Part shown: piece by piece, positions 2,108-32,659 of the stretch
How the letters are laid out: each line of letters starts with the position of its first letter
Numbering within the stretch: the stretch's first letter is position 1
Virus genome (UHGV): UHGV-0188647
Direction: 5' to 3' (one strand)
Source of the DNA: a virus
Length of the DNA: 32,659 nucleotides
Notes under the pieces: generated by a model
Databases searched by the model: none
Told to the model about the DNA's origin: nothing
Seen by the model: the letters and a program-made list of their open reading frames with translations, nothing else
Program-made: the position numbers and the translations under genes

Positions 2108-2536
2108 CGTTGGCCCCGCTTCTCTGAATCGCTTTATACCGCCATTCCAGCACTTCGGTCAGCGGCATAACGTCAGTAACGGATGGCGGCCAGTGAAAGA
2201 TGGTGGCGATATCAGCCACCAGATCGTCAACCGTCAGGCTGTCGGTAAACCGGCAAGTACCGACTTCTTCAACAAAAAAGTGACAACCTCAACCGACATA
2301 GCGGTGAGATCTGCCGGGTCCATCTCTGCAATTTCCTGTGCAGTCAGTGCCGGGCTGGAGATGCGGGGGATCACGGTCATCATCGCGTTCACATCCATAT
2401 CCATAATAGCCTGCAGGCGTGTACCGCGCAGTGCACCGGACTGCGGTTTACGCAGCACAATTTCGGTGATTTCCGTTTTACCGCGCTTGATAGGGGTATC
2501 CAGTTGAATGGTCTTTTCAGTCTGCTTATCGCTCAT
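2100..2536 (-). CDS. E+E' extended chaperone made by -1 programmed frameshift
   Basis: Slippery TTTTTTG on the minus strand at 2273-2279; by hand translation the -1 frame stays open for 57 codons (VEEVGTCRFTDSLTVDDLVADIATIFHWPPS...) to TGA at 2100-2102, overlapping the T start codon. Confidence 0.6.
2234..2536 (-). CDS. E: tail assembly chaperone (P2 gpE-like)
   Basis: 100-aa ORF ending ...VVTFLLKKSVLAGLPTA; contains a TTTTTTG slippery heptamer; sits between the tail tube and tape-measure genes. Confidence 0.85.
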   Translation of the reverse strand: MSDKQTEKTIQLDTPIKRGKTEITEIVLRKPQSGALRGTRLQAIMDMDVNAMMTVIPRISSPALTAQEIAEMDPADLTAMSVEVVTFLLKKSVLAGLPTA

Positions 2537-2590
2537 TTTTCTGTCCTGTAAATTGGGTTCTGGCGCGGAATCCCGCGCCGTTCAGATACA

Positions 2591-3106
2591 TCAGAGGCCG
2601 AGGGCGTTGCGGTGCGCTTCCATCAGGTCCACGCCGTCCACAATTTCCACCATGTTGATAAGGTCCACTTCATAGAGCACCTCACCATTGATAGTCAGCT
2701 TCGCGTAGCTGTTGGTACTGGTCACTTTGGTGGTGTTGCTTTCGCCCGTCTTCCACTCGCCGGAATCCACTTCTTTGTGACGTCCACGCACCACAAGCTC
2801 CACGGCCTGCACTTCCCCGGTATCGTCACGCTGAATAGAGCCGGTAAAGCGCAACTGGATACCATCCACCGTGGCTTTGCCCATCTGCTTAAACAGCAGC
2901 AGTTCAGTACCACCAATGGAAAATTCTGTGTCCAGCGCACTATCATCCAGCCCCAGATCCACATCCACTGCACCCGGCATTCCGCCACCGCGATACTTCT
3001 CATATTTGCGGGTGAATTTCGGCAGCGTCAGCGACTCAACGATCCCCTGCCAGTTGTTCCCGTCGTTAAACAGGTTCAGGTGTTTTAATTTGCGTGGTAA
3101 AGCCAT
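2591..3106 (-). CDS. FII: tail tube protein (P2 gpFII-like)
   Basis: 171-aa ORF directly downstream of the sheath gene; size and position match P2 FII. Confidence 0.85.
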   Translation of the reverse strand: MALPRKLKHLNLFNDGNNWQGIVESLTLPKFTRKYEKYRGGGMPGAVDVDLGLDDSALDTEFSIGGTELLLFKQMGKATVDGIQLRFTGSIQRDDTGEVQAVELVVRGRHKEVDSGEWKTGESNTTKVTSTNSYAKLTINGEVLYEVDLINMVEIVDGVDLMEAHRNALGL

Positions 3107-3115
3107 GTTGTCCCC

Positions 3116-4288
3116 TTACGCGCTGACCTGGCTGGAGAAATTCACCAGGTACTGATCGGTGATGCGCTGACGCAGCATCAGGTTTTCAAGTGGCGGCACT
3201 GGTGTGTAGTCGTAGTCGATGGTGAGTTTTCCAGCTTTCAGAGTGTCTTTGTCGTTCACCGACTCATCCAGCCAGCAATCGCCACCAATGAGATAGCCCT
3301 GACTGATCAGGCTGCGCATTTTGGCGCGGATACCTTCGATAATGTCGCGGGCCAGCGACGGATTCAGCGGTTTGTCGACCGCCCACATTGGCGCTTCTGC
3401 CATCGTGTCCATCAGCACCTGCGCCGTGCGGGTGTAGTTTTCGAAGGCAAAGAGTGGGTCATCACTCAGGCAGCGGGAACCCCAGAAGCGAAAGCCGTCT
3501 TTGCGGATAAGTGTGGTAACATCGTTCTGGTTAAGCAGTCCCGCATCAGTTGCCGGGTCCTGCAGATCCCAGAACACATCAGCAGAAATTCCGGTGACAC
3601 CGTTCACGCCCACGTTGGACAGGCTTTTGTGCCACCCTGTCTGCTCATCAATTTTGGCACGCAGACCAAGCGCACGGGCGGTGGCATATGCCGTTGCGTC
3701 GGCATTCAGCACCGTGTCCCAGCCAGTAAAGTCAGGCCAGATCAGCATCCCTTCACGCTGACTGAAGTTTTCACGGTAAGTGATCGCCTCCTGCACCGTC
3801 TTGCAGCCATACGCTGACAGGTAAGCAAACCCACGCAGGCTTTGCGCCACGCCCAGCAACTCAGTAGCAACGGCTTTATTATCGTGCCCCGGCACGCCGA
3901 GAATGCGCGGTTTAACACCGAGCTGTGACTGGGCAGATAACAGGGCTTTCATACCAGTTTTTTTACCTTCAGCAGTCACTGCGCCGATGATATTGGTCGT
4001 GGTTTCTTCTTCCGTTTCACCCTGCGGCACACGCACAACAACGGTCACGGGTTTTGCCTGGTCAGCGATGGCATCCAGCGAACGGGCCAGCGTACCGGAT
4101 TCACCCGCCTTACCGCTGGCAGTAAGCACATCAGTGATCAGCACGGGTTTATTAAGAGGGAACATTTTTGCATCGGCATCATCGCCCGTGCAGACCATGC
4201 CCACGATGGCGGTGCTCACCGTGGTAATGGATCGAGTGCCTTCGTTGACTTCAACAACGCGCACTCCGTGGTGGTAATCCTGAGCCAT
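3116..4288 (-). CDS. FI: contractile tail sheath protein (P2 gpFI-like)
   Basis: 390-aa ORF, first gene after a TGT-N12-ACA late-promoter dyad; size and order FI-FII-E-T match the P2 tail operon. Confidence 0.9.
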
Positions 4289-15001: not shown

Positions 15002-16768
15002 ATGAACACCACACTGACACCCGCAGATCTCGATCCCCGTCGGCAGGCCATGCTGCTGTACTTTCAGGGATACCGCGTAGCCCGCATTGCTGAAATGCTG
15101 GGCGAGAAAGTTGCAACCGTTCACAGCTGGAAAAAACGCGACAAGTGGGGTGACTATGGGCCGCTGGATCAGATGCAGCTCACCACCGCCGCACGCTACT
15201 GCCAGCTCATTATGAAGGAGCACAAAGAAGGGAAAGATTTCAAAGAGATTGACCTGCTGGCGCGCCAGTCGGAGCGCCACGCGCGGATCGGCAAGTTTAA
15301 CAATGGCGGCAACGAATCCGACTTAAACCCTAACGTCGCCAACCGCAACAAAGGCCCGCGCCGTCAGCCGGAAAAGAATGTTTTCACCGATGAGCAGATT
15401 GAGAAGCTGGAAGAAATCTTCCATTCCTCCATGTTCAACTACCAGCGCCACTGGTGGGAAGCCGGAAAAACCAACCGCATCCGCAACCTGCTGAAGTCAC
15501 GCCAGATCGGCGCGACCTTTTACTTTGCCCGTGAAGCCCTGATTGACGCTCTGCTTACCGGACGTAACCAGATTTTTCTTTCCGCCAGCAAGGCACAGGC
15601 TCACGTCTTTAAGCAGTACATCATAGACTTCGCCAAAGAAGTCGAGGTGGAGCTGAAAGGCGATCCGATGGTGCTTCCTAACGGAGCCACGCTTTACTTC
15701 CTCGGCACCAATGCCCGCACGGCCCAGAGTTACCACGGCAACCTGTATCTGGATGAATATTTCTGGATACCGAAATTCCAGGAGCTGCGCAAAGTGGCTT
15801 CTGGTATGGCTATTCACAAAAAATGGCGACAAACCTATTTTTCCACGCCATCCAGCCTGACACACAGTGCTTATCCGTTCTGGTCCGGTGCGCTGTTCAA
15901 CCGTGGGCGCAATAAAGCCGATAAGGTGGACATCGACCTGTCCCACAGCAATCTGGCCCCCGGCCTGCTGTGCGCAGACGGGCAATACCGCCAGATAGTC
16001 ACCGTGGAAGATGCAGTGCGCGGCGGATGTAACCTTTTCGACCTCGATCAGTTGCGCATGGAGTACAGCCCGGACGAATACCAGAACCTGCTGATGTGCG
16101 AGTTTGTGGACGATCTCGCGTCCGTGTTCCCGCTCAGCGAGCTGCAGGCGTGCATGGTGGACAGTTGGGAAGTCTGGACCGACTTTCATGCACTGGCCCT
16201 GCGCCCGTTTGGCTGGCGCGAAGTGTGGATCGGTTATGACCCGGCAAAAGGTACGCAAAACGGCGACAGCGCCGGGTGCGTGGTGGTGGCACCGCCAGCC
16301 GTGCCGGGCGGTAAGTTCCGCATTCTTGAGCGTCACCAGTGGCGCGGGATGGACTTCCGCGCCCAGGCTAACGCCATCAAAAAACTGACTGAACAGTACA
16401 ACGTGACATACATCGGTATCGACTCAACCGGCGTCGGTCACGGGGTTTACGAGAACGTGAAAGCGTTTTTTCCTGCCGTCCGGGAGTTTGTCTACAACCC
16501 CAACGTTAAAAACGCCCTGGTACTCAAGGCCTACGACATTATTAGCCACCGCCGCCTGGAGTTTGACGCCGGGCACACCGACATAGCGCAGTCCTTTATG
16601 GCAATCCGTCGCGCCACCACTGCCAGCGGCAACCGCCCGACCTATGAGGCCAGCCGCAGCGAAGAAGCCAGCCACGCCGATCTGGCCTGGGCAACAATGC
16701 ACGCACTGTTTAACGAACCGCTGCAGGGCGAGTCCGCCAATACCAGCAATATTGTGGAGATTTTTTGA
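15002..16768 (+). CDS. P: terminase large (ATPase) subunit (P2 gpP-like)
   Basis: 588-aa ORF (P2 P is about 590 aa), divergent from O, followed by the portal gene with an ATGA overlap. Confidence 0.9.
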   Translation: MNTTLTPADLDPRRQAMLLYFQGYRVARIAEMLGEKVATVHSWKKRDKWGDYGPLDQMQLTTAARYCQLIMKEHKEGKDFKEIDLLARQSERHARIGKFNNGGNESDLNPNVANRNKGPRRQPEKNVFTDEQIEKLEEIFHSSMFNYQRHWWEAGKTNRIRNLLKSRQIGATFYFAREALIDALLTGRNQIFLSASKAQAHVFKQYIIDFAKEVEVELKGDPMVLPNGATLYFLGTNARTAQSYHGNLYLDEYFWIPKFQELRKVASGMAIHKKWRQTYFSTPSSLTHSAYPFWSGALFNRGRNKADKVDIDLSHSNLAPGLLCADGQYRQIVTVEDAVRGGCNLFDLDQLRMEYSPDEYQNLLMCEFVDDLASVFPLSELQACMVDSWEVWTDFHALALRPFGWREVWIGYDPAKGTQNGDSAGCVVVAPPAVPGGKFRILERHQWRGMDFRAQANAIKKLTEQYNVTYIGIDSTGVGHGVYENVKAFFPAVREFVYNPNVKNALVLKAYDIISHRRLEFDAGHTDIAQSFMAIRRATTASGNRPTYEASRSEEASHADLAWATMHALFNEPLQGESANTSNIVEIF

Positions 16769-17793
16769 TGGGAAAGAGTAAGAAAAACCGCGCTGCGGCG
16801 ACGAATCAGCTCAAGCATAAAAGCCAAACTTCAGCCGAAGCATTCAGCTTTGGCGATCCCGTTCCTGTTCTGGACCGCCGTGAACTGCTGGACTATGTGG
16901 AATGCGTACAGATGGACCGCTGGTATGAGCCGCCCGTCAGCTTTGACGGACTGGCACGAACCTTCCGCGCCGCCGTGCATCACAGCTCACCAATTGCGGT
17001 GAAATGCAACATTCTGACCAGTACCTACATCCCTCACCCGCTGCTCAGCCAGCAGGCTTTTTCACGTTTTGTGCAGGACTATCTGGTATTTGGTAACGCC
17101 TACCTGGAGAAACGCACGAACCGCTTCGGTGAAGTTATCGCCCTTGAGCCTGCTCTGGCAAAATACACCCGACGCGGGTTAGACCTGGATACCTACTGGT
17201 TTGTGCAATACGGTATGACAACCCAGCCGTATCAGTTCACGAAAGGCAGCATTTTTCATCTGATGGAACCGGACATCAACCAGGAGATCTACGGCCTGCC
17301 AGGTTATCTTTCTGCCATTCCATCAGCCCTGCTCAACGAGTCCGCCACGCTGTTCCGCCGCAAGTATTACATTAACGGCAGTCATGCAGGCTTCATCATG
17401 TACATGACCGATGCCGCGCAGAACCAGGAGGATGTGAACAACCTCCGCAATGCGATGAAAAGCGCCAAAGGCCCTGGCAACTTCCGCAACCTGTTTATGT
17501 ACTCGCCTAACGGCAAAAAGGACGGGCTTCAGATCATCCCGTTGTCAGAAGTCGCGGCGAAGGATGAGTTTCTGAGTATCAAAAATGTCAGCCGCGATGA
17601 CATGATGGCAGCGCATCGTGTGCCGCCGCAAATGATGGGGATTATGCCGAATAATGTTGGGGGGTTTGGGGATGTGGAGAAGGCAAGCCGTGTGTTTGTT
17701 CGTAACGAACTAATACCATTGCAAAAAAGATTGGATGAGTTAAATAATTGGTTAGACGATAAAATAATAACATTTAACACATACAATTTTTAA
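16765..17793 (+). CDS. Q: portal protein (P2 gpQ-like); last ~25 codons unusually AT-rich
   Basis: 342-aa ORF (P2 Q is about 344 aa) after the terminase gene, oriented toward cos; the C-terminal tail ...LDELNNWLDDKIITFNTYNF is encoded by AT-rich DNA unlike the rest of the gene. Confidence 0.85.
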   Translation: MMGKSKKNRAAATNQLKHKSQTSAEAFSFGDPVPVLDRRELLDYVECVQMDRWYEPPVSFDGLARTFRAAVHHSSPIAVKCNILTSTYIPHPLLSQQAFSRFVQDYLVFGNAYLEKRTNRFGEVIALEPALAKYTRRGLDLDTYWFVQYGMTTQPYQFTKGSIFHLMEPDINQEIYGLPGYLSAIPSALLNESATLFRRKYYINGSHAGFIMYMTDAAQNQEDVNNLRNAMKSAKGPGNFRNLFMYSPNGKKDGLQIIPLSEVAAKDEFLSIKNVSRDDMMAAHRVPPQMMGIMPNNVGGFGDVEKASRVFVRNELIPLQKRLDELNNWLDDKIITFNTYNF

Positions 17794-17823: not shown

Positions 17824-18345
17824 TCAGTTAATCAGTTTATTTAATGACTTAGACCACTTCTGTCCCAAATCATCAATATCAAAATCACCATCTCGCTGCT
17901 GCCATTTAAAAACTAAGGCTATAAGTTCACTCTTGAGGATTCTTTTATAATAATCCTTAGATTTTAATTGCTCAAGTATATGTTCACCAACCTCAGCAAG
18001 CTTTCTATGATTTAATTCTGACAGATCTCGATGCAAATGGTTAACTGATTTATACAAAGTATTTCCTTCAGTACGAGAAATATCAATACCTTTATCTTCA
18101 AACCATTGTGAATCAAGCCAAACCAAATCTATCGTAGCTGGCTCTGACATCGTGGTGGCAAGGGCAACAATAATTTTCTCTACCGATTCATCTTGAAAAT
18201 CGATAGAGTCAGAAACCCAAACTGACAAGGTGTTATTAGAGGTCCTTGTGCAACCTGTTATCGCGTCTGCGGATATATTGTCAGGTGCTCTACCTTTATT
18301 ACATTCCCATTTACTATGGGATATTTTACGCAATAAATATGTCAT
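17824..18345 (-). CDS. hypothetical protein, cargo operon gene 3 (173 aa)
   Basis: AT-rich ORF; its ATG overlaps the upstream gene's stop as TAATG (18343-18347); no family recognised; has an R-x6-H pair (RDLSELNH). Confidence 0.6.
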   Translation of the reverse strand: MTYLLRKISHSKWECNKGRAPDNISADAITGCTRTSNNTLSVWVSDSIDFQDESVEKIIVALATTMSEPATIDLVWLDSQWFEDKGIDISRTEGNTLYKSVNHLHRDLSELNHRKLAEVGEHILEQLKSKDYYKRILKSELIALVFKWQQRDGDFDIDDLGQKWSKSLNKLIN

Positions 18346-18992
18346 TATAGACTTCTCAAATATCCTATAACTGCTTCTTTATATTCTTCCACCCAATCAG
18401 CATCAAATTTCCTCATTCTTTCAAGGACTGGAATAAATGATTTTTCCCCCCAAGACTCAACTGCACGGATCGCTGCCTCAAATATAAGTTCATTCTCAAG
18501 AGAACAAACTCCCATAATCATAGCGTCAGCTTTATTACCTAACCATTCATATTCAATAGTCGATGCAAAATTAATGAAGTTCTTTACATGTTGATCATTC
18601 ATTCTGTACAATTGTACCCATGTCCTTTGAAAGGACTCTTGGAATAAATCCTGATTTTTATCATACAAGAACTCCATGTAAATCTGTGTCTTGCTTATCT
18701 CGCCTTCAATGTAATCTTCTGAACATGTTAACTCAATTAGTCTAGAGGTACATTTTGAAACCTGAATTTCAAAGTTCTGCTTAGTTGACGAACCTTGATT
18801 TATTGACTCAGTCTCTAATTGAAAGCCACCATTTGTTTTGCTATGTGACAGCTCATTTCTTTTAATATCAGCGTAAATGATATTGTTACCATCATAATAA
18901 TCAGAAAATGCACCTATTGAACTTACCCCATTTTTAAACTTAGGTAAGCCAAAAGGCTTTTCATCACTTATTATAAAACTATTCTTTACCAT
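18345..18992 (-). CDS. hypothetical protein, cargo operon gene 2 (215 aa)
   Basis: AT-rich ORF 9 bp after gene 1, with an AAGGTGA RBS; no family recognised. Confidence 0.6.
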   Translation of the reverse strand: MVKNSFIISDEKPFGLPKFKNGVSSIGAFSDYYDGNNIIYADIKRNELSHSKTNGGFQLETESINQGSSTKQNFEIQVSKCTSRLIELTCSEDYIEGEISKTQIYMEFLYDKNQDLFQESFQRTWVQLYRMNDQHVKNFINFASTIEYEWLGNKADAMIMGVCSLENELIFEAAIRAVESWGEKSFIPVLERMRKFDADWVEEYKEAVIGYLRSL

Positions 18993-19001
18993 AGCATCAC
19001 C

Positions 19002-19697
19002 TTACAGAGAAGTGTAGCGTTGTAAATTATCAATAGTTTTAAGATTGTCCTGACACAATAACTCTAGCACGCGGATATATTCATCCCAACCAAACCGCAT
19101 ATATCCATTTTGAGGAAGAGTATTAGTATCAGTTTCAAATAATACGCAATCACTTGGCATACCATTATTCAAAAATGGAGCTGAAATTTCAGCGCGTCTA
19201 ATTGTACTAATACTATTAATTTCTTCCTGATACTCTTCAATATTTTTCCTTACAGCTATACGATTGTCCCACTCAAATGGATTAACACCTTTATAGGTAA
19301 ACAAAGCATTGTAAAGCGAAGAGTAAACAGATTCATCCCCTTGATAGATACGTGAATTCAGAACAGCTATCCTATTTCCTTTTTTCATCGGAAATACGTT
19401 TTGTAGTTCCCTAGATATAGATAGAACCATTTCTGAAAACGCTTGAGGTTCCCCCCCCAAACCATTAAAAATGATTCCATGGCTAGGAAACTCGACTCTT
19501 ACTGTTTGATTGGTATCTACCATGATAAGAATTTGCTTTTTCTCACCAGTGATGGCATTAATCTCCTGACCAAAAGTAGGTACAAATCCAAATTTTCCAA
19601 TCTTATCAAGCATAGATCCAATAGTTAGTGTATTTGGAACTATATCATTATTATTTGTGAAAAAATTAATCTGATGCGTCTGTTCAATCAATTTCAT
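19002..19697 (-). CDS. hypothetical protein, cargo operon gene 1 (231 aa)
   Basis: AT-rich ORF with an AAGGAG RBS 5 nt upstream of the ATG; first gene downstream of the cos-like site; no family recognised. Confidence 0.6.
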   Translation of the reverse strand: MKLIEQTHQINFFTNNNDIVPNTLTIGSMLDKIGKFGFVPTFGQEINAITGEKKQILIMVDTNQTVRVEFPSHGIIFNGLGGEPQAFSEMVLSISRELQNVFPMKKGNRIAVLNSRIYQGDESVYSSLYNALFTYKGVNPFEWDNRIAVRKNIEEYQEEINSISTIRRAEISAPFLNNGMPSDCVLFETDTNTLPQNGYMRFGWDEYIRVLELLCQDNLKTIDNLQRYTSL

Positions 19698-20653: not shown

Positions 20654-23068
20654 TTAATACAGGTTCCGCCACTGATCATCTTCCTGCAAACGCTGGCTCC
20701 GATAGAAGATACGCAGGCCTGCTCCTGACGGAATACTGCCTCCGCGAAGGAGTAAATCGACCTCTTTCTCGCTGCCATCAAATCCTCTGGACTTCAGCTC
20801 ATACACGAGCTGCAGTCGCTGATGGTCTGTAATTCGCTGTTTGTAGTCTTTACGCCGTTTCGGTTTCACCAGGCATAACCTTGCTGCCAGTTCCCGGCGC
20901 TCTTTTTTGCTCATACTGTGCAGGTAATCGTGCAACTCCTTGTCATCCATGCTGGTAATGTCCGTTCTGGGGTCCCCATCAGCTGATTTATCTTTCTCCT
21001 GTTGGTTCAAATTTTCAGCAAGGGGACAGTTATTGCCACGAGTCCAAGGGGCGCAAGCGCCCTGGTCGGCTGCCGCCTCCTGAACGTCAACGGCCTTACG
21101 AACCATTTTCCACTTCACTGCATGAGTGCAGATCTTGCCCTCTGCAATGGGTGACCAGATGCCATAAATACGAATGCCGTGATCGCCATAGGCGGTCGGC
21201 TCTTCGTTGATTTCATAAGCGGTTCTGATGAGGTGATATTTGCGGGGAACCAGTACGCCGCCCTGCTTCATGATGTAGGTGGCAAAACAACCAGCATCAG
21301 CAGCAGCCAGAATGGCATCAAGACGCGGGTTATCCAGTACCGGCGCACCTGCTTTTTTGTCACCCTGTTGCCTTGCCGCCTGACCAGCCAGCAAGCGAAG
21401 TTCACGGTAAGCCTGACGTCCCGGAATACCAAAGAAGCGGAATTGCTGTACACGATGCAGAGACGCCCAGGCATTAACGTATTCAGCGTTATCACGCAGG
21501 GATTTACCCGTTTCCTTGCTGATCTCGCCAGCCAGACCACGCCCGTCAATGTTCTTACTGATGTATTTCGCGATGTAGCTTGTCGGCGTTCCTTTGCGCG
21601 GGTTTATCAGCTCAGATTTAAAGCGTGGACCAGTGTTATTACCCAGTTCCTCGCGGTCTTCACGGATGGCAAACTTACGCAACAATGCAGTAATGGCGCG
21701 GCGGTCTTTTTTGCGCATGAAACACAACAGGTGCCAGTGAACTGTACCGTCATGATGCGGCTCAGCCACCCGCACGCCATACCAGCGCAACCCGGCTTTG
21801 TGCATCGCCTTACGAAATGCAGCAAACATGCCGACCAGATAATCGCTGCTTTGTCTTACCGTCGCATTTGTCCAGGTTGGGTTTGGTCTGCCGTTATTGA
21901 GCGTGGAATGGAAACGTGACGGACAGGTAATGGTGTAGAAAACGGCGCAGTCACCGCGCATTTCCGCGATAAGCTCCAGACCTTTAACACAGGCCATCAT
22001 CTCATTGCGGCGGTGCGCCGGGTTGCTGCTGCTGGCGTTTACCACGTCTTCCATATCCAGCGTGTCGCCCTCTTCGTTCACCAGTTCATGAGAACGGAAA
22101 AACTCCAGTGACTTGCGGCGCTGCTCACGTTTATGAATCACGGCTTCATAGCTGACATAGGGAGATGCTTTTTTGCTGACCAGGCAGACAGCACGCAACT
22201 GCTCTTCCCGCCATTCGCAACGCATTTTCCATAATTTCCGGTACCACCAGTCGGCACACAACATACGCGCCAGCGAACCCGGAATGAGTTCATAGGGCAC
22301 GGGTTGACGGCGGTTTCTTTTCCGACGGAGTTGCTCAAACGCAGGCGGAATAACATCCAGACGCAGGGTTTCCGCTGCCACCTTTTCCCATGTTTTGCGG
22401 ATTTCTTCTGGCTTAACGTCATCGGTGGCGTACAAATCACCACAAGCGGCATCAAGACACATGCTCATATGCGCAGCGACAAGAGTAGACAGGCGTTTCA
22501 CCTGATCCTGACTCATTTCAGGCAGAATCAGCAGGCCGTCCAGCCCTACATGGCTTGCCATAAAACGAAAAGATGCAGATAGCTGGCTGTCGCGTACATG
22601 CTCCAGTCGCTCCAGACATGGCTTAATCGTCTCACGCAAATAGCGGGAATAAGCCTTTGGCCTGCCCAGGCTGCTGAAGTATTCAATACGTTGCATCAGC
22701 GGCTTGCTGATATGGGAAGGCTGGGCATTGACGTCCGCCAGAATGACCATATCTGGATTAAAACGCTGCTGCTCATGCGCCAGCTTTGCCCGACTAATGA
22801 GCTTATCCTGCTCCATTTCGCGCTGGACAGGATCACGGGATTCATTAAAGAAATAACGCTCCCAGACCTGATCACTCAGTGCCTCGCGGCGCAGGTGTTC
22901 CTGCTCGTTATCGGCAGCGTACAGAGCGATCAGGTTTGAAAGCGCAGAAACCGGCGCAACTTCCGCCGGGTCCAGATAAGGGTTAATGGCCTTTTTCGGG
23001 CTGTTCCATGAGAACGCTGCGGCAGCCTCGTTAAAGCCGCAGCAGTTGTTCATATCGGCATGGCTCAT
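20654..23068 (-). CDS. A: replication initiation endonuclease (P2 gpA-like, rolling-circle initiator)
   Basis: 804-aa ORF with an HxH-type motif (TVHWHLL) and a tyrosine pair motif [10 protein letters not shown] (Y-x-x-K-Y); its position matches P2/186 gene A. Confidence 0.85.
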
Positions 23069-25863: not shown

Positions 25864-26496
25864 ATGATACAGGTAAAGGTTGGAGAGAATACAGGGGGAA
25901 GAGAGGCTATCCATAGACTAATGGCAGCCTATGATTTCAAGTCCAGACAGCAACTTTGCGATCACTTAGGCGCATCAAAAAGCACCATGGCAAACAGATA
26001 CTTAAGAGATAGTTTTCCTGCAGAGTGGGTGATTCAGTGCGCCTTGGAAACAGGAGTTTCTTTACTGTGGCTAACCACCGGACAGGGAGAGCCAGGTCCA
26101 AACATTGAACCTAAAAAAAATATCAATTCCGTGAACTCCAGCAAGGTTGTACCTCTTTCTGAACTAGTATCTCCTGAAATTGACAAGGCGACTCTCAACG
26201 GTGGTTTATTGGTCGATGCTGGAAAAGCAATCATTGATAGCAGCATACTCCCCTCAGACTCAAGCAACCTACTGCTGGTGACTACTTCTGGTGATTCTTA
26301 TTTAATAGATCGCAACCAAACACCACCAGTAAATGGTATGTGGTTAGTCGATATCGACGGGATAAAAAGCATCGTTAAATTGACTCGACTCCCGGGAAAC
26401 AAATTAGTAGTGCATCAGGATGATTCATCGTTTGAGTGCGGTCTGGATGACATTGAGGTAGTAGGCCGCGCACTGAAAATCATTAAGAGCCTTTGA
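25864..26496 (+). CDS. cI: immunity repressor (186 CI-like)
   Basis: 210-aa protein, divergent from the apl-like gene and immediately upstream of int (TGATATG junction). Confidence 0.7.
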   Translation: MIQVKVGENTGGREAIHRLMAAYDFKSRQQLCDHLGASKSTMANRYLRDSFPAEWVIQCALETGVSLLWLTTGQGEPGPNIEPKKNINSVNSSKVVPLSELVSPEIDKATLNGGLLVDAGKAIIDSSILPSDSSNLLLVTTSGDSYLIDRNQTPPVNGMWLVDIDGIKSIVKLTRLPGNKLVVHQDDSSFECGLDDIEVVGRALKIIKSL

Positions 26497-26497
26497 T

Positions 26498-27520
26498 ATG
26501 ACCATCAGAAAACAGCCGAACGGAAAATGGTTGTGTGAGTGCTATCCCAATGGACGCAATGGCAAGCGCGTGCGTAAGCAATTTGCCACGAAAGGCGAAG
26601 CCATTGCGTTTGAAAGCTTCACAATGGAAGAAGTGAATAAAAAACCGTGGTTGGGTGAAAAGGATGATCGGCGACGCCTATCAGAATTAATTGAGCTTTG
26701 GTATTCCCTATATGGTCAAACACTCGCAGACCCCAAGCGCCTCATGGCGAAACTTAGAATTATCTGTAATGGTCTAGGCGATCCCATCGCCTCAGAACTG
26801 ACAGCTGGTGACTTTACAAAATACCGCGAAGCACGGTTAAAAGGTGAAATACGAAATGAAGATGGCACGCTTATGTCGCCCGTTAAGCCCCGCACGGTAA
26901 ACCTTGAACAGCGCAATCTATCATCTGTGTTCGGTACATTAAAAAAACTAGGACACTGGTCAGCACCAAACCCGCTGGCAGGACTTCCGACCTTCAAAAT
27001 TGCCGAAGGTGAGCTGGCTTTTCTTTCCACGGACGAAATCAAGCGCCTGTTGGCGGCATGTGCTGAATCTCAAAGCCCTAGCTTACTAATGATTGCAAAA
27101 ATATGCCTAGCTACTGGCGCACGGTGGAGTGAAGCCGAAAATCTGCAGGGCCATCAAATATCGAAATACCGAATTACTTATACAAAAACAAAAGGCAAGA
27201 AAAACCGTACTGTGCCGATATCTCAGGATCTGTATGATGAACTCCCCAAAAACAGAGGGAAGCTATTCACTCCATGTAGAAAAGCCTTTGAGCGGGCGGT
27301 TAAACGCGCGGGTATTGAGCTGCCAGAAGGCCAATGCACCCATGTACTGCGCCACACATTCGCCAGTCACTTCATGATGAATGGCGGAAACATACTCGTT
27401 TTGAGGGATATTTTAGGGCATTCAGATATTAAGATGACTATGGTTTATGCCCATTTTTCACCAGAGCATCTTGAAGATGCAGTAACTAAAAACCCACTAT
27501 TTAATTTAAATATTATATGA
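26498..27520 (+). CDS. int: tyrosine integrase (P2/186 family)
   Basis: C-terminal catalytic region HVLRHTFASH...LGHSDIKMTMVYAH (R, H-x-x-R and Y signature); 340 aa. Confidence 0.9.
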   Translation: MTIRKQPNGKWLCECYPNGRNGKRVRKQFATKGEAIAFESFTMEEVNKKPWLGEKDDRRRLSELIELWYSLYGQTLADPKRLMAKLRIICNGLGDPIASELTAGDFTKYREARLKGEIRNEDGTLMSPVKPRTVNLEQRNLSSVFGTLKKLGHWSAPNPLAGLPTFKIAEGELAFLSTDEIKRLLAACAESQSPSLLMIAKICLATGARWSEAENLQGHQISKYRITYTKTKGKKNRTVPISQDLYDELPKNRGKLFTPCRKAFERAVKRAGIELPEGQCTHVLRHTFASHFMMNGGNILVLRDILGHSDIKMTMVYAHFSPEHLEDAVTKNPLFNLNII

Positions 27521-28578
27521 ACATTAATACTAGCTTTACTGGAATTATTGTGTATATTTTGGCAATTATTCTTTTTGCGTTTGTATCAATATATAAAAAG
27601 TGGTACATTCTCGATAAAAGAAATTTATTTCAACAGAAATTATTTTGGATTTCAATTGCAGTACCACTGCTGTCATTCATTTATTTTGGAGCATTTGCAT
27701 GGTTTGGTAAAATACCTGTTCTTTCTGCTCACGGATATGCCAGATTCTATGAGATAAGCAAATTCCCATTATTGATACTCGCAAGTTCTGTACCATTAGC
27801 TTCCATAGTAAATAACATTCACAGAACGATACAAACCGAAGCACAAATTAATTCATCTGAAATCAAAAATGCAATCGATAGACATTTTGCTCATGAGAAA
27901 AATTTCGTAGATAAAATTAAAGAAATATCAAGCTTTACGATGCAAAGCTTTGTAGATGACGCATCAAAATATTATAATTACAATGATAGCAACAAAATTA
28001 AAATACTAACAACTCATGAAATTAAAATCTCAAACCCATACTTATTATATTCCAATATATATACAGAATCGTCAATGGATATCACATCCAATTATTCACC
28101 AGACGAGAACTTTAAAAAAAGCATATTGTCAATCCTAGATACCATTAATAATAACTTATCAAAAGATAAGGTTACACCCCATTCAAATGCAGAAGATTAC
28201 CTTACCAGATTAAATACAATTTCATATAACATAGCTAAATTATTAGATACTTTATGCGTAGATTGTATCTCGATAGCCTATATAGAGTTAAAAATCAACG
28301 GCACTAAAATAAGAACGTTCACCCCTACAGAATCAATGTTAGCCGAATCACTTGAGGCTGCATTTTATCTATCTAAAAAGATATTAAAACTAGCTTACGG
28401 ATTTCAGCTTCAAAACTACAGTAATATATATAACTACTTGTACATTGGTGAAATTAAATTTGATACAGAACAATTTTCTAAATTTTTGCAACCATTCTAT
28501 TCTCCTGAATGGTCAGCATACGTAATGGAGAAACCGGTGACAGTTGATGATGGCGGCACTTTGGCGGCAGAGGATTAA
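27517..28578 (+). CDS. hypothetical membrane protein (353 aa), AT-rich moron translationally coupled to int
   Basis: ATGA start/stop overlap with int; 2-3 N-terminal transmembrane helices followed by about 250 aa of soluble N/K/I/Y-rich sequence; no family recognised. Confidence 0.6.
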   Translation: MNINTSFTGIIVYILAIILFAFVSIYKKWYILDKRNLFQQKLFWISIAVPLLSFIYFGAFAWFGKIPVLSAHGYARFYEISKFPLLILASSVPLASIVNNIHRTIQTEAQINSSEIKNAIDRHFAHEKNFVDKIKEISSFTMQSFVDDASKYYNYNDSNKIKILTTHEIKISNPYLLYSNIYTESSMDITSNYSPDENFKKSILSILDTINNNLSKDKVTPHSNAEDYLTRLNTISYNIAKLLDTLCVDCISIAYIELKINGTKIRTFTPTESMLAESLEAAFYLSKKILKLAYGFQLQNYSNIYNYLYIGEIKFDTEQFSKFLQPFYSPEWSAYVMEKPVTVDDGGTLAAED

Positions 28579-28663: not shown

Positions 28664-28708
28664 ATGTAGGAATTTCGGACGCGGGTTCAACTCCCGCCAG
28701 CTCCACCA
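28664..28708 (+). other. ssrA: 3'-terminal 45 nt of ssrA (tmRNA), prophage att junction
   Basis: atgtaggaatttcggacgcgggttcaactcccgccagctccacca matches the 3' end of E. coli tmRNA including the CCA, as I recall it; the sequence upstream is AT-rich and unrelated. Confidence 0.75.
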
Positions 28709-28754
28709 AAATTCTCCATCGGTGATTACCAGAGTCATCCGATGAAGTCCTAAG

Positions 28755-28788
28755 AGCCCGCACGGCGCAAGCCCTGCGGGCTTTTTTG
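28755..28788 (+). terminator. rho-independent terminator (native ssrA terminator-like)
   Basis: Long GC hairpin agcccgca...tgcgggct with a GCAA tetraloop, followed by TTTTTT. Confidence 0.55.
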
Positions 28789-28913
28789 TGCCCTCAATTT
28801 GTCCCGCGAAGTCCGAAGAAAACTAATTAAATCCGATCCTTTTAGGCACCTTGTTAGGCACCTCATAAAGCTTTATTGTTTTTTGAGGTGCCTAAAACTA
28901 TGGAAACCCGGCA

Positions 28914-30155
28914 ATGGCAAGACAAACCAAACCTCTATCCGTTAAAGAAATAGAATCAGCCAAACCCAAGGAGGCGGACTACGTTCTCTATGATGGCGAT
29001 GGCCTTGAGCTACTCATTAAATCCAGCGGGAGTAAAATCTGGCAGTTTCGCTACATTCGCCCTGTCACCAAGAAACGAGCAAAGAAGAGCATAGGCTCCT
29101 ACCCGTCAGTTACCCTTGCCGATGCCAGAAACTACCGTGCAGAGTCCCGCTCACTACTGGCTAAACAGATCGATCCGCAGGAACATCAGCAAGAACAATT
29201 GCGCAGTTCGCTGGAAGCCAAAACCAACACTTTCCAACTCGTAGCTGAACGTTGGTGGAATGTGAAGAAAGCCAGTGTGACAGAGGACTATGCGGAAGAT
29301 ATCTGGCGCTCTCTTGAAAGAGACGTCTTTCCTGCGATTGGCGACGTTAGCGTTACAGATATTAAAGCTCATACACTGGTTCAGGCCGTACAACCGGTTC
29401 AGGCCAGAGGAGCACTGGAAACTGTTCGTCGCCTGTGCCAACGTATTAATGAGGTCATGATCTATGCCCAGAACACAGGGCTGATTGATGCTGTTCCCAG
29501 CGTTAATATCGGTAAAGCCTTCGAGAAGCCTCAGAAAAAGAACATGCCCAGCATTCGACCGGATCAGCTACCTCAGTTAATGCAGACGATGCGAACAGCC
29601 AGCATTAGCCTTTCCACACGCTGCCTGTTCATGTGGCAACTTCTTACTATTACCCGCCCTGCCGAAGCGGCTGAAGCTCTCTGGGAAGAGGTAGACATAG
29701 AAGCGCGAGAGTGGAAGATTCCTGCAGCACGCATGAAAATGAACCGCGACCATACTGTTCCATTGTCAGATGAAGCAATTGCGATACTAGAGATGATGAA
29801 GCCGTTAAGTGGAAATCGAGAATTTATCTTTCCCAGCCGCATCAAGCCAAACCAGCCGATGAACAGTCAGACCGTAAACGCATCGCTAAAACGCGCAGGT
29901 TTTGGTGGGGTGCTCGTTTCACACGGCCTGCGATCTATCGCCAGTACAGCCCTTAATGAGCAGGGATTTCCACCTGATGTTATTGAGGCTGCACTTGCTC
30001 ATGTGGATAAGAATGAGGTTCGTCGTGCGTATAACCGTAGTGATTATCTTGAGCAGCGACGGCCTATGATGCAGTGGTGGGCTGATTTTGTGATGGCTGC
30101 AGATCACGGTAGTATGATTGAAGGAGGGATAAAGGCAATGCGGTTAGTTGGATGA
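28914..30155 (+). CDS. P4-type tyrosine integrase (IntA-like) of a second integrated element
   Basis: 413 aa; N-terminus LSVKEIESAKPKEADYVLYDGDGLELLIKSSGSKIWQFRY is the typical P4-integrase arm-binding domain; lies directly downstream of the ssrA 3' end as in ssrA-linked islands. Confidence 0.85.
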   Translation: MARQTKPLSVKEIESAKPKEADYVLYDGDGLELLIKSSGSKIWQFRYIRPVTKKRAKKSIGSYPSVTLADARNYRAESRSLLAKQIDPQEHQQEQLRSSLEAKTNTFQLVAERWWNVKKASVTEDYAEDIWRSLERDVFPAIGDVSVTDIKAHTLVQAVQPVQARGALETVRRLCQRINEVMIYAQNTGLIDAVPSVNIGKAFEKPQKKNMPSIRPDQLPQLMQTMRTASISLSTRCLFMWQLLTITRPAEAAEALWEEVDIEAREWKIPAARMKMNRDHTVPLSDEAIAILEMMKPLSGNREFIFPSRIKPNQPMNSQTVNASLKRAGFGGVLVSHGLRSIASTALNEQGFPPDVIEAALAHVDKNEVRRAYNRSDYLEQRRPMMQWWADFVMAADHGSMIEGGIKAMRLVG

Positions 30156-30235
30156 CATGTCGTAGCTAAAACCCGTTCTGTTTTTGGGTAGATTAACCTG
30201 AAGGTCTGCAATTTTAAATGACGCTGAAAGAAGTT

Positions 30236-30264
30236 AAACCCTGCTCTTAAGCAGGGTTTTTATG
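30236..30264. terminator. bidirectional hairpin between the integrase gene and the convergent large ORF
   Basis: aaaccctgc-tctta-gcagggttt stem-loop followed by ttttat. Confidence 0.45.
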
Positions 30265-30293
30265 ATTTATTCTAATTTTGGTTTTGAATCTTT

Positions 30294-32597
30294 CTATTTT
30301 AAATCAGCCTTTGCGGCTCGAATATCTGCGTTTTTTGCTGAGTATTCCCATTCGTCAGCGATTCTAAATAGCATTGCAGAAGTACGGACGCAGTGGGGCA
30401 TTGAATTTGCCCATTCTCGGTACTGCTCAGCTAATATCCTTTCTTGGTTTCCACCTTCGTAACGCATACGAGCAAATACCCCCCTTTTATTGTACCTACC
30501 AATTTGTATACCTTGCTCTAACTCATCAGAAGATAATATTTCAATGATGTGCCGAATTGCTTCATGTGGCCAGGAATTATCTACTGAGCTATTAGGGGCA
30601 TGTGCCAGAATTTTTCCTATTACATGATCAGTGATTTCTTGGCGATGATGCAATTTTGCTAAATGGCGTACATTCTCACACCAATCTTCAAGTTTATCTT
30701 GATCAATTTCATTGTCTATCTGCCCTGGTAGTATTCGTAATTTTTCAAGTAATCTGTATATAGAAGTAGCTCTTTTAACTTCCAACTCCGATGGTTCTGT
30801 TTGTTCATCTTCGTCACTACGATATACAATACATATTGCTTCTATAAAAACCTCTGGCTTTTTCATCATTAGACGATGCAGGATAAGTGGCTCATCGCTA
30901 TCCGGAAAACAAGGCAAGTAGGTCATTTCTTTAAATGCCAAATCTGTTTCAGAAACATCGTTACGTTGTTTGAGTTCATCAAAAACTTTTTTTACATAGT
31001 ACGATAGCATTGTATCAAATTGGATATCCTGGCTATTTATTTCTTTAACGACTATATCTAGAAGATATAAAAGTGTTGTAGATGGAATCTCAGAAAGGCG
31101 TTGATTTGCTGATATAATAGCAGCAAGACCCCGGCCCCTTTCTATATATTTATCCATAAGAACAAATAAATCCGAAGTTTTACCCATCATTGCAATGGGT
31201 TGTTTTTGCAACCAATATTTTTCGTTGATGTTATCTTCAAACCCTTCAATAATGCTCCATATCTCTTGTGAGTCTCTTAACGATGCTAAGATTTTCCCAG
31301 CCCTATCAGGGGTAATTTTAAACTGTTTAAAATACACTTTTATTTTATTAAGCCATTCAGCACCAAAGCATTCAACACCATATTGCATTAACAACCCACA
31401 AACTTCATCAATATTTTTTTTGTTGTTAATAAGCATTACAAACAAATCATTTAATTTTTCTTCATCCAACGAGAGTGCTGATATATGCCTTGCTGCAATA
31501 AAAACATTATTAACTTGTTGAAAAAGGTCTTTCACCCCAGACAAACCTAAAGTAAAGTATATTTCCCTAAGTTTTTCACTTCGCATTTCTTCGACAGAAG
31601 AAAAAATTCCGCCAGCATTTTCAATTGACTCTTCAATATCAGAATCCCAATCATTGAAAATCCATAAACTGGCTCTAACCATGTCAATTGGTTTATAATT
31701 ATCAAGTATTTTCGCTATTTTTTCCATAGACTCAAATTTAAATGCCCAGTTCGCATCTGAATATTTTTTATGGCGAGAATACTCATGACGCAAAGCCTCC
31801 CATACGATGAACTGATCCTCTTCAGTTTGTTGAGAAAGGCAAAGTTCAAGATGAGAAAGTGTTTCATCTATTGCATTCTCAGGGAATGAGCTTAAATGAG
31901 AGATTAGGATTTCCCATCTTGTTGGGAGTATACCTGCAAGTTTAATTGCTTCTTGGATAATAAAGATTTGCCCCTCCCAAACAACGCCCCACGTTAGTTT
32001 TTCTACATCTTTATCCGACTCTCTGAACTTCATTTTTTGGTTTTGATCAGAGGTATCATGGGAGCGAGGAAGGAGATTTTGTAACAAACTCCACCCAATA
32101 CTAGGAACAATAGTGATAATTTTTTTTATAATTGCATTTCTAACTTTTACTGGTGCCCATGTATTAGGAGACCATGCCAGAAAAATGGTTCTTAAACTAT
32201 TAAGAGGGCGATCTGAGTAAGTTCCTCCGGGATCTATTACAGCGAGTTTTGCAAGACAGATTGCAGCGCGTAATAGATATGTTTGTTCCCAAGCCAAGGC
32301 TTCCAATGCCCATTTTAATCCATGATAATGACTTCGAGGAGTTAACAGCCCTTTATCTTCATTGAATATTGGAGCAATCATTTCCCCATTGCCCTTAAGC
32401 AATTGCTCAAGGGCATCAAGGAAAGGGCCAGGGGCAGCTTCTGCCAGCAGCGGAAGTTGATCTCGCAAACTAACAAATAGTCGATGGTCGTTAGCAAGTC
32501 CCGGAATACTCTGAACTATTTTGTTAACAAAATCTTGGGGTGTCATACCAGTAACCCGGAATTCGGCCTGTTCATGTAATATGATCTTACCCAGCAA
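30294..32597 (-). CDS. large hypothetical protein (767 aa), AT-rich island cargo
   Basis: Long uninterrupted AT-rich ORF convergent with the P4-type integrase; no Walker A or other motif recognised; the start may be the Met at 32597 or the internal Met at residue 17. Confidence 0.6.
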   Translation of the reverse strand: MLGKIILHEQAEFRVTGMTPQDFVNKIVQSIPGLANDHRLFVSLRDQLPLLAEAAPGPFLDALEQLLKGNGEMIAPIFNEDKGLLTPRSHYHGLKWALEALAWEQTYLLRAAICLAKLAVIDPGGTYSDRPLNSLRTIFLAWSPNTWAPVKVRNAIIKKIITIVPSIGWSLLQNLLPRSHDTSDQNQKMKFRESDKDVEKLTWGVVWEGQIFIIQEAIKLAGILPTRWEILISHLSSFPENAIDETLSHLELCLSQQTEEDQFIVWEALRHEYSRHKKYSDANWAFKFESMEKIAKILDNYKPIDMVRASLWIFNDWDSDIEESIENAGGIFSSVEEMRSEKLREIYFTLGLSGVKDLFQQVNNVFIAARHISALSLDEEKLNDLFVMLINNKKNIDEVCGLLMQYGVECFGAEWLNKIKVYFKQFKITPDRAGKILASLRDSQEIWSIIEGFEDNINEKYWLQKQPIAMMGKTSDLFVLMDKYIERGRGLAAIISANQRLSEIPSTTLLYLLDIVVKEINSQDIQFDTMLSYYVKKVFDELKQRNDVSETDLAFKEMTYLPCFPDSDEPLILHRLMMKKPEVFIEAICIVYRSDEDEQTEPSELEVKRATSIYRLLEKLRILPGQIDNEIDQDKLEDWCENVRHLAKLHHRQEITDHVIGKILAHAPNSSVDNSWPHEAIRHIIEILSSDELEQGIQIGRYNKRGVFARMRYEGGNQERILAEQYREWANSMPHCVRTSAMLFRIADEWEYSAKNADIRAAKADLK

Positions 32598-32659
32598 TAG
32601 TGGACACGCGGCTAAGTGAGTAAACTCTCAGTCAGAGGTGACTCACATGACAAAAACAG

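What the first reader, a model, noticed from the sequence alone, without database searches (positions are those of the whole stretch)
30294..32597. Large unknown AT-rich ORF as first cargo gene of the neighbouring P4-integrase island
A 767-aa ORF sits convergent to and just downstream of a P4-type integrase at the ssrA site. It is AT-rich, and I see no Walker A or recognisable catalytic motif. Genes next to P4-type integrases at tRNA/tmRNA sites are a known location for defence and other accessory cargo, and a single very large protein there is a plausible single-gene defence or effector candidate. The window ends 62 bp upstream of its start, so any operon partners are not visible.
Basis: partly seen in the sequence, partly recalled or inferred. 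Interest (0 to 1): 0.6.

Follow-up and report, generated by a model that had tools for sequence, protein, structure and literature searches.

The report
IS3-truncated remnant of Avs8-like gene
The "767-aa gene" is only the back 61% of a 1,248-aa gene that an IS3 insertion sequence cut in two; the intact gene, found in other E. coli, is an unstudied distant relative of the phage-sensing immune nuclease Avs8, so this copy is a dead remnant.

Summary
The ORF at 30294-32597(-) exists, is AT-rich, lacks a Walker A motif and lies convergent to a P4-type integrase. It is not a complete gene. Its TTG start and first five codons lie inside the left inverted repeat of an IS3 element (window 32582-32659). 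Removing the IS3 copies in silico from an identical locus (strain GE3) restores one 1,248-aa ORF. That ORF matches, at 100% identity in one piece, intact genes in E. coli O104:H4 and others (WP_000871158.1).

The parent family has about 4,900 clusters at 50% identity, nearly all members about 1,250 aa and all unannotated. Models predict an N-terminal PD-(D/E)xK nuclease, a STAND/AAA+-like domain whose P-loop is replaced in 72 of 72 members, and a C-terminal HEAT-like solenoid. Only the solenoid survives in the window. Profile comparison shows collinear remote homology to Avs8A/PD-lambda-4A (95.6% probability), a capsid-sensing nuclease. Avs8A lies head-to-head with the intact gene in the enterobacterial island.

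The parent gene is most likely a single-gene anti-phage sensor-nuclease; this is inferred, not shown. The window copy lacks the effector half and is most likely inactive.

The parts
28664..28708 (+). Last 45 nt of ssrA (tmRNA nt 319-363). This is the att core repeat marking the left border of the P4-integrase island. No complete tmRNA is in the window.
   Evidence: blastn of GE3 ssrA against the window: 45/45 identical. ARAGORN and Rfam find no tmRNA.
28914..30155 (+). P4-type tyrosine integrase, 413 aa.
   Evidence: Pfam Arm-DNA-bind_3 (4e-21), Phage_int_M (4e-24), Phage_integrase (8e-36). Annotated as integrase WP_000113815.1 in identical loci.
30236..30259 (.). 10-bp-stem hairpin between the convergent integrase gene and the remnant. 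It looks like a bidirectional terminator.
   Evidence: Consensus scan, found on both strands. Function was not tested.
30294..32581 (-). Native 3' remnant (nt 1460-3747 of 3747; residues 487-1248 plus the stop codon) of the 1,248-aa Avs8-like gene. It encodes only the HEAT-like alpha-solenoid (sensor) part.
   Evidence: In-silico IS3 excision. 100% single-piece match to intact alleles. PHROG phrog_18693 aligns ORF residues 5-767 to profile positions 488-1255 of 1258. AlphaFold model pLDDT 90.2, all-alpha. Only generic HEAT-repeat structural matches.
32582..32659 (+). Left end of IS3: the IRL and the start of orfA. The window ends inside the element. It supplies the spurious TTG start and codons 1-5 of the listed ORF (32582-32597).
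   Evidence: The IRL sequence is located at 32582. The stretch is 100% identical to the 1,258-bp IS3 of GE3, which has a 3-bp ATA target duplication. RefSeq annotation is 'IS3-like element IS3 family transposase'.

Best explanation
The window holds the IS3-truncated 3' remnant of a 1,248-aa gene.

Shown: IS3 inserted at codon 487. The surviving piece encodes only the C-terminal alpha-solenoid. Intact alleles exist in other E. coli.

Inferred, architecture: the intact protein is a distant paralogue of the antiviral STAND protein Avs8A (PD-lambda-4A) that lacks a P-loop. It has three parts:
- residues about 1-165: a PD-(D/E)xK nuclease
- residues about 190-450: a STAND/AAA+-like NOD with winged helix, with 'AADSPDEV' in place of the Walker A motif
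- residues about 480-1248: a HEAT-like solenoid

Inferred, mechanism by analogy with Avs8A and Avs4: the solenoid binds a phage protein, binding releases autoinhibition and drives oligomerisation without nucleotide, and the assembled nuclease domains degrade DNA, giving abortive infection.

The window copy lacks the nuclease and NOD halves. It has no evident promoter or ribosome-binding site. It is therefore most likely a non-functional pseudogene remnant.
For: Truncation:
- The IS3 IRL starts at 32582 and overlaps the ORF start.
- In strain GE3, which is 100% identical to window 28664-32659, two 1,258-bp IS3 copies, each with its own 3-bp target duplication, split the gene. Removing them gives one 1,248-aa ORF.
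- That reconstruction matches natural intact genes at 100% identity in a single BLAST piece, for example O104:H4 2011C-3493, WP_000871158.1.
- More than 350 homologues are nearly all 1,244-1,260 aa. 4,914 representatives match at E<=1e-3.
- The PHROG alignment of the ORF starts at profile position 488.

Architecture:
- N-terminal model has pLDDT 90.5 and pTM 0.82.
- Foldseek top hits are SAMD9, a STAND-TPR protein, Avs4 and Avs5.
- D54 and E74 are invariant; K84, D88 and R92 are at least 97% conserved. Position 76 is K in 3 of 72 members.
- No Walker A at the P-loop position in 72 of 72 members.

Homology to Avs8A:
- hhalign of the family against Avs8A gives 95.6% probability, E 1.3e-8, over 697 collinear columns. 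D54, E74 and G76 are in register with Avs8A's D, Q and K of its D...QxK motif.

Context:
- The gene stands alone with no recurrent neighbour.
- It lies next to integrases, type I, IIG and IV restriction systems, Septu, TA systems and Avs8A/B.
- Avs8A is shown experimentally to bind HK97-fold capsid protein and degrade dsDNA (bioRxiv 10.1101/2025.07.02.662641). One Avs8 homologue that naturally lacks nucleotide-binding residues is reported (PMC13581612).
Against: - No member of this family has been tested. Defence is inferred from architecture, remote homology and neighbourhood only.
- The canonical catalytic Lys of (D/E)xK is Gly in 63 of 72 members, so nuclease activity depends on a presumed relocated Lys (K84).
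- The PADLOC PD-Lambda-4_A model does not hit the protein, and the hhalign match stops at about residue 808.
- Some immediate neighbours are housekeeping genes such as gyrB, cstA and thiG.
- IS3 is reported to provide outward transcription (my recollection, not checked here), so expression of the fragment cannot be excluded.
- What lies beyond the window end in this strain is unknown.
Confidence: 0.75

Rival explanations
1. The ORF is a complete, functional 750-767-aa stand-alone cargo protein of the island.
For: The frame is open to a stop codon with no internal frameshift. RefSeq annotates a 750-aa 'hypothetical protein' at this position in identical loci.
Against: - The start codon lies in the IS3 inverted repeat.
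- All homologues are about 1,250 aa and align to the ORF only from position about 487.
- Intact 3,747-bp alleles exist at 100% identity.
- There is no promoter-like signal above chance and no Shine-Dalgarno sequence at either candidate start.
Confidence: 0.03
2. The truncated solenoid is expressed from IS3-derived outward transcription. It then acts on its own, for example as a decoy that sequesters the phage ligand, or as a modulator of the neighbouring Avs8A.
For: - The fragment is kept free of further mutations and is 100% identical among many strains.
- The fragment-only state is common: 14 of 60 sampled carriers.
- Sensor domains are reused without a STAND module in other systems, such as the Avs7 sensor in Dsr1 (PMC13581612).
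Against: - The identity among strains is equally explained by recent clonal spread.
- No start signals are present.
- In the fragment-only strain inspected (JL05), the Avs8A/B region is also deleted. That fits decay of the island rather than neofunctionalisation.
Confidence: 0.05
3. The parent family is not an immune protein. It serves the mobile element itself (addiction, exclusion or regulation), or it is a DNA-binding regulator.
For: - Some database records call it 'addiction module' or 'XRE family / helix-turn-helix transcriptional regulator'.
- Some members carry N-terminal HTH extensions.
- It is frequently adjacent to integrases and occurs on 24 plasmids.
Against: - The HTH is present only in a minority of members.
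- The core architecture and the remote homology are to Avs8A, a demonstrated antiviral nuclease.
- About 10% of immediate neighbours are known or candidate defence genes.
Confidence: 0.15

Closest known systems
Avs8A / PD-lambda-4A (antiviral STAND; ECOR07 WP_000963924.1)
   Same: - Similar size: 1,283 aa against 1,248 aa.
- Collinear domain order: PD-(D/E)xK/Mrr-type nuclease, then NOD, then helical sensor.
- hhalign gives 95.6% probability over about 700 columns, with the catalytic D and (E/Q) in register.
- It is encoded head-to-head with the intact gene in the same enterobacterial ssrA island, and next to a family member in Rhizobium lentis.
   Different: - There is no HMM-level similarity; the PADLOC model is silent.
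- The Walker A motif GLSGVGKT is replaced by AADSPDEV in all 72 members examined.
- QxK becomes ExG, with a conserved Lys eight residues later.
- The last roughly 440 residues of the sensor do not align.
- There is no Avs8B-like partner.
- No experimental data exist for this family.
Avs4 (EcAvs4, PDB 8dgf)
   Different: Avs4 has an active P-loop and binds ATP. There is no detectable sequence similarity. The global TM-score is low (0.15).
KpAvs8 (PMC13581612)
   Same: [quoted passage not shown] This is the same peculiarity as the family studied here.
   Different: I could not obtain its sequence or accession. Whether it belongs to this family is unresolved.
IS3-interrupted pseudogenes in E. coli genomic islands
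   Same: A 1,258-bp IS3 with a 3-bp target duplication splits an AT-rich island gene. Varied decay states occur among strains.
   Different: Nothing unusual. This is the ordinary part of the finding.

Membership tests
IS3-disrupted gene (pseudogene remnant) | The ORF boundary coincides with an IS3 terminal inverted repeat. | tested here: met
   The IRL starts at 32582, and ORF codons 1-5 lie inside it.
IS3-disrupted gene (pseudogene remnant) | Precise excision of the IS and one target duplication restores a longer ORF that exists intact elsewhere. | tested here: met
   Done on the identical GE3 locus: a 1,248-aa ORF results. It is 100% identical in one piece to intact alleles. The window itself ends inside the IS, so the far junction in this strain was not seen.
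Antiviral STAND (Avs) proteins | N-terminal effector domain (here a PD-(D/E)xK nuclease). | tested here: met
Antiviral STAND (Avs) proteins | [quoted passage not shown] | tested here: not met
   The fold is present (hits to Avs4, CED-4, Apaf-1, RFC and ORC). Walker A is absent at the P-loop position in 72 of 72 members. The domain is absent from the window fragment.
Antiviral STAND (Avs) proteins | C-terminal TPR/HEAT-like helical sensor. | tested here: met
   The window ORF models as an all-alpha solenoid with pLDDT 90 and HEAT-repeat matches.
Antiviral STAND (Avs) proteins | Phage-protein-triggered oligomerisation and anti-phage protection. | not testable with these tools
   This needs phage challenge and biochemistry.
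Avs8 / PD-lambda-4 | Match to the family HMM (PADLOC PD-Lambda-4_A). | tested here: not met
   No PADLOC hit for the fragment or for the full-length protein. True Avs8A scores E=0.
Avs8 / PD-lambda-4 | Detectable homology to Avs8A. | tested here: met
   Profile-profile comparison gives 95.6% probability, E 1.3e-8, 697 columns, collinear. With a single Avs8A sequence as template it gave only 11%.
Avs8 / PD-lambda-4 | Two-gene operon with Avs8B. | tested here: not met
   There is no conserved downstream partner in 65 loci.
P4-type integrase island at ssrA | P4-type integrase adjacent to the 3' end of ssrA. | tested here: met
   Integrase domains. A 45-nt ssrA 3' repeat lies 205 bp upstream. In GE3 and O104:H4 the full ssrA abuts the same integrase.

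The most novel reading that the evidence does not exclude
The parent family has about 4,900 clusters at 50% identity across Proteobacteria, Acidobacteria and Cyanobacteria. It may be a large, overlooked clade of Avs-type immune sensor-nucleases that lost nucleotide binding altogether and are activated without NTP. In Enterobacterales and Rhizobium it may also work as a head-to-head pair with its P-loop-bearing paralogue Avs8A, like paired sensor/helper NLRs in plants. The window copy would then be one of many independently inactivated alleles: about 73% of sampled E. coli carriers are damaged. That would hint at a fitness cost (autoimmunity).
Probability: 0.2. Interest if true: 0.6.

Novelty: new variant of a known kind. 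Interest (0 to 1): 0.3.

Why it matters
For this window the result is a correction. The candidate 'large single-gene defence protein' is a broken gene lacking its predicted catalytic half, so it should not be cloned or scored as a 767-aa protein.

The useful by-product is the parent gene. It is intact in E. coli O104:H4 and ECOR07-type islands and sits directly beside the characterised Avs8A/B. It belongs to a very large, wholly unannotated family with Avs-like architecture and a uniformly degenerate P-loop. If it defends against phage, it would test directly whether STAND-type immune receptors can assemble and fire without nucleotide. It would also add a common family that defence-annotation tools (PADLOC v2) currently miss.

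Tried and rejected
- tmRNA or tRNA at the site: none found by ARAGORN or Rfam. Only a 45-nt ssrA remnant is present.
- Pfam, NCBIfam and PADLOC on the fragment and on the reconstructed full-length protein gave nothing; one Oxidored_nitro match at E 0.27 was dismissed. A PDB sequence search with the family profile gave nothing.
- Foldseek of the fragment model gave only generic HEAT-repeat proteins with TM below 0.36, which is not informative for function.
- I could not identify the window's own strain to see past the window end. The prophage cargo region is absent from all 5,426 complete E. coli genomes.
I used the window ORF and the 893-aa contig-truncated homologue P0178 instead.
- Obligate partnership with Avs8A is rejected as a general rule. 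Avs8A is adjacent only in the enterobacterial island (2 of 77 species loci) and in Rhizobium lentis.
- A conserved operon partner is rejected. The most frequent Pfam family among 123 immediate neighbours is the integrase, at 6.
- The gene is not phage-borne: 0 of 50,697 phage records match, although a PHROG exists for it.
- Promoter scan: no signal above the shuffled expectation.
- Literature: no paper mentions WP_000871158. The KpAvs8 sequence is not retrievable from the held supplements.

Full report
**Observation**

The ORF listing gives a 767-codon ORF at 30294..32597 on the minus strand with a TTG start. GC is 0.35-0.39 over the ORF, against 0.50-0.60 for most of the window. Upstream and convergent lies a 413-aa integrase (28914-30155, +) with Arm-DNA-bind_3, Phage_int_M and Phage_integrase domains, which is P4-type. 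A 10-bp-stem hairpin at 30236-30259 separates the two genes. The ORF has no Pfam, PADLOC or NCBIfam match.

Two points do not hold:
- There is no tmRNA gene in the window (ARAGORN and Rfam). Only the last 45 nt of ssrA are present, at 28664-28708, as an att repeat. Everything to the left is a P2/186-like prophage: terminase, portal, gpA, CI and integrase. The prophage sits between the true ssrA, which is outside the window, and this island.
- The 78 bases at the window's right end (32582-32659) are the left end of IS3. The sequence TGATCTTACCCAGCAATAGTGGACAC... runs on to the orfA start ATGACAAAAACAG. The ORF's TTG and its first five codons (MLGKI) are read from the reverse complement of the IS3 inverted repeat.

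**The ORF is a fragment**

Window 28664-32659 is 100% identical over 3,996 nt to E. coli GE3. In GE3 the locus continues as follows:
- IS3 copy 1: 1,258 bp, target duplication ATA
- a 432-codon ORF
- IS3 copy 2: 1,258 bp, inverted, target duplication CAT
- a 77-codon ORF

Deleting both IS3 copies and one copy of each duplication in silico yields one continuous 1,248-aa ORF. That reconstruction matches naturally intact 3,747-bp genes at 100% identity in a single BLAST piece. Examples are O104:H4 strains 2011C-3493 and C227-11, EC11 and M11, where it is annotated 'hypothetical protein' WP_000871158.1.

The window retains nt 1460-3747, which is residues 487-1248. Two independent lines agree:
- PHROG phrog_18693 aligns ORF residues 5-767 to profile positions 488-1255 of 1258.
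- More than 350 homologues from two searches are almost all 1,244-1,260 aa and align to the ORF only with their C-terminal 61%.

Some part of the gene is present in 204 of 5,426 complete E. coli genomes. In an evenly spaced sample of 60 of those records:
- 16 are intact
- 14 hold only nt 1459-3747 as BLAST reports it, which is the window-type remnant; JL05 is a strain of this type, and there the rest of the island is deleted
- the remaining 30 carry one to three IS copies or other truncations

The window's own strain is not in the collection. Whether the 5' segments survive beyond the window is therefore unknown.

**What the parent gene is**

No curated family matches the full-length protein: Pfam, NCBIfam, PADLOC and PDB by sequence are all silent. 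The family is nevertheless large. An exhaustive phmmer search found 4,914 representatives (50%-identity clusters) at E<=1e-3 and 2,303 at E<=1e-30. They come from beta-, gamma-, alpha- and deltaproteobacteria, Acidobacteria and Cyanobium.

AlphaFold models built with a 72-sequence alignment are confident:
- Window ORF: pLDDT 90.2, entirely alpha-helical. Only generic HEAT-repeat matches appear (SF3B1, karyopherins, CAND1), with TM below 0.36.
- N-terminal 893 aa of homologue P0178: pLDDT 90.5, pTM 0.82.

The N-terminal model shows four regions:
1. Residues 1-165 form an alpha-alpha-beta-beta-beta-alpha-beta-alpha-beta unit.
2. Residues about 190-300 form a beta-alpha-beta NTPase-like core.
3. 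Winged-helix-like elements follow.
4. The solenoid follows.

Conservation fits this reading. D54 (start of beta-2) and E74 (beta-3) are invariant in 72 of 72 members. K84, D88 and R92 on the following helix are at least 97% conserved. Position 76, where the canonical Lys of ExK would sit, is Gly in 63 members and Lys in 3. At the P-loop position every member has a variant of AADSPDEVxAF, and none has GxxxxGK[ST] there.

**Relation to Avs8**

In the intact O104:H4 island the divergent neighbours of the gene are PD-Lambda-4_A and PD-Lambda-4_B (PADLOC E=0 and 2e-164). They are WP_000963924.1 and WP_000443183.1, the very proteins characterised as ECOR07 Avs8A and Avs8B. According to bioRxiv 10.1101/2025.07.02.662641, Avs8A has an Mrr-type nuclease and a P-loop NTPase, is activated by HK97-fold major capsid proteins, degrades dsDNA, and loses defence when nuclease residues are mutated.

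A profile-profile comparison of my 72-member family alignment with three Avs8A sequences (E. coli, Intestinirhabdus, Rhizobium) gives 95.6% probability, E 1.3e-8, over 697 collinear columns (family 27-808, Avs8A 17-819). In this alignment D54 pairs with the D of GGID, E74 with the Q of QxK and G76 with the K of QxK. The Avs8A Walker A motif GLSGVGKT falls where the family has its degenerate loop. With a single Avs8A sequence as template the probability was only 11%, and the PADLOC Avs8A model does not detect the family.

I therefore call the family a distant, P-loop-less paralogue of Avs8A and not a member of Avs8. [quoted passage not shown] I could not retrieve its sequence, so whether it belongs to this family is open.

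**Genomic context**

The gene stands alone. Among 123 immediate neighbours in 65 species-level loci no family recurs: Phage_integrase is the most frequent at 6, and roughly 12 neighbours hit known or candidate defence models.

Loci inspected individually show the following:
- P4-type or other integrases: L004, L007, L011, L013
- type I restriction-modification: L006
- a type IV restriction enzyme: L009
- type IIG restriction-modification with an HKD-Snf2 helicase: L014
- Septu PtuA/B: L015
- TA modules: L008, L012
- an Avs8A homologue immediately downstream in Rhizobium lentis: L012

Avs8A adjacency recurs in the enterobacterial island: E. coli, Shigella and Intestinirhabdus directly, and K. 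aerogenes and Pantoea by adjacent locus tags or a shared contig. It is absent from the other 75 species loci, so it is not obligatory.

Other observations on distribution and architecture:
- No phage genome carries the gene. Twenty-four plasmids carry distant homologues.
- One member, P0191, has a different N-terminal 287 residues with a canonical D...ED...QVK motif joined to the same solenoid.
- Other members add an N-terminal HTH.

This is effector/adaptor modularity of the kind typical of immune sensors.

**Mechanism**

Shown: IS3 truncation, the domain content of the surviving fragment, the existence and size of the parent family, its predicted fold, the degenerate P-loop, and remote homology and adjacency to Avs8A.

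Inferred: the intact protein is a single-polypeptide anti-phage sensor-nuclease. The solenoid recognises a phage protein. Recognition relieves autoinhibition and causes nucleotide-independent oligomerisation through the NOD-like module. The juxtaposed PD-(D/E)xK domains then cut DNA, giving abortive infection. I put about 0.6 on this for the parent gene and about 0.97 on the remnant status of the window copy.

The window copy lacks residues 1-486, which hold the nuclease and the NOD. It has no Shine-Dalgarno sequence at either candidate start and no promoter-like site above the shuffled expectation. It is most likely inert. A sensor-only role, as a decoy or modulator, cannot be excluded but has no support.

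**Verdict**

The parent family is a new variant of a known kind: an Avs/STAND-type nuclease sensor without a P-loop. It deserves a test using an intact allele from another strain. The window's copy itself is ordinary IS-mediated decay.

Noticed in passing
window 17824-19697 (-): Three tightly packed AT-rich ORFs (173, 215 and 231 aa; GC about 0.34-0.38) lie between the portal gene (16765-17793) and the gpA replication gene (20654-23068) of the P2-like prophage. This is the position of the known P2 defence hotspot. They have no Pfam or PADLOC hit and match only unknown-function PHROGs (phrog_10743, 21208, 19817). They are a better untested defence-cargo candidate than the finding itself.
   Followed up: partly
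window 27517-28578 (+): A 353-aa ORF at 29% GC overlaps the stop codon of the P2-type integrase and ends just before the 45-nt ssrA repeat. Its N-terminus is hydrophobic and may be membrane-spanning. It has no Pfam or PADLOC hit and matches phrog_17460 (unknown function). No complete E. coli genome in the collection carries this cargo.
   Followed up: partly
window 1-28708: The ssrA site is occupied in tandem. A P2/186-like prophage (terminase 15002-16768, portal, gpA, CI 25864-26496, integrase 26498-27520) is inserted between the real ssrA, which is off-window, and the P4-integrase island. The 45-nt ssrA 3' end is repeated at 28664-28708.
   Followed up: yes
L002 6890-15747 (E. coli O104:H4 2011C-3493) and L012 9001-16904 (Rhizobium lentis): The experimentally characterised Avs8A/Avs8B pair lies head-to-head (467-bp spacer) with the intact 1,248-aa P-loop-less paralogue in the enterobacterial ssrA island. 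In Rhizobium lentis an Avs8A homologue (30% identity) lies 303 bp downstream of a family member (33% identity). This may be a paired arrangement, or it may only be defence-island co-location.
   Followed up: partly
L001 18919-22703 (E. coli GE3): Two IS3 copies in opposite orientation are inserted in the same gene, 1,269 bp apart, each with its own 3-bp target duplication. Only 16 of 60 sampled E. coli carriers keep the gene intact, so inactivation of this gene is recurrent.
   Followed up: partly
P0191 (1,177 aa), P0194, P0201, P0310, P0316: Family members have swapped or extended N-termini. P0191 replaces the first ~360 family positions (it aligns to the family only from its residue 288, family residue 357) with a different ~287-residue module bearing a canonical D...ED...QVK nuclease motif. 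Others carry 80-115-aa N-terminal HTH (HTH_17 or XRE-like) extensions. This explains database names such as 'helix-turn-helix transcriptional regulator'.
   Followed up: partly
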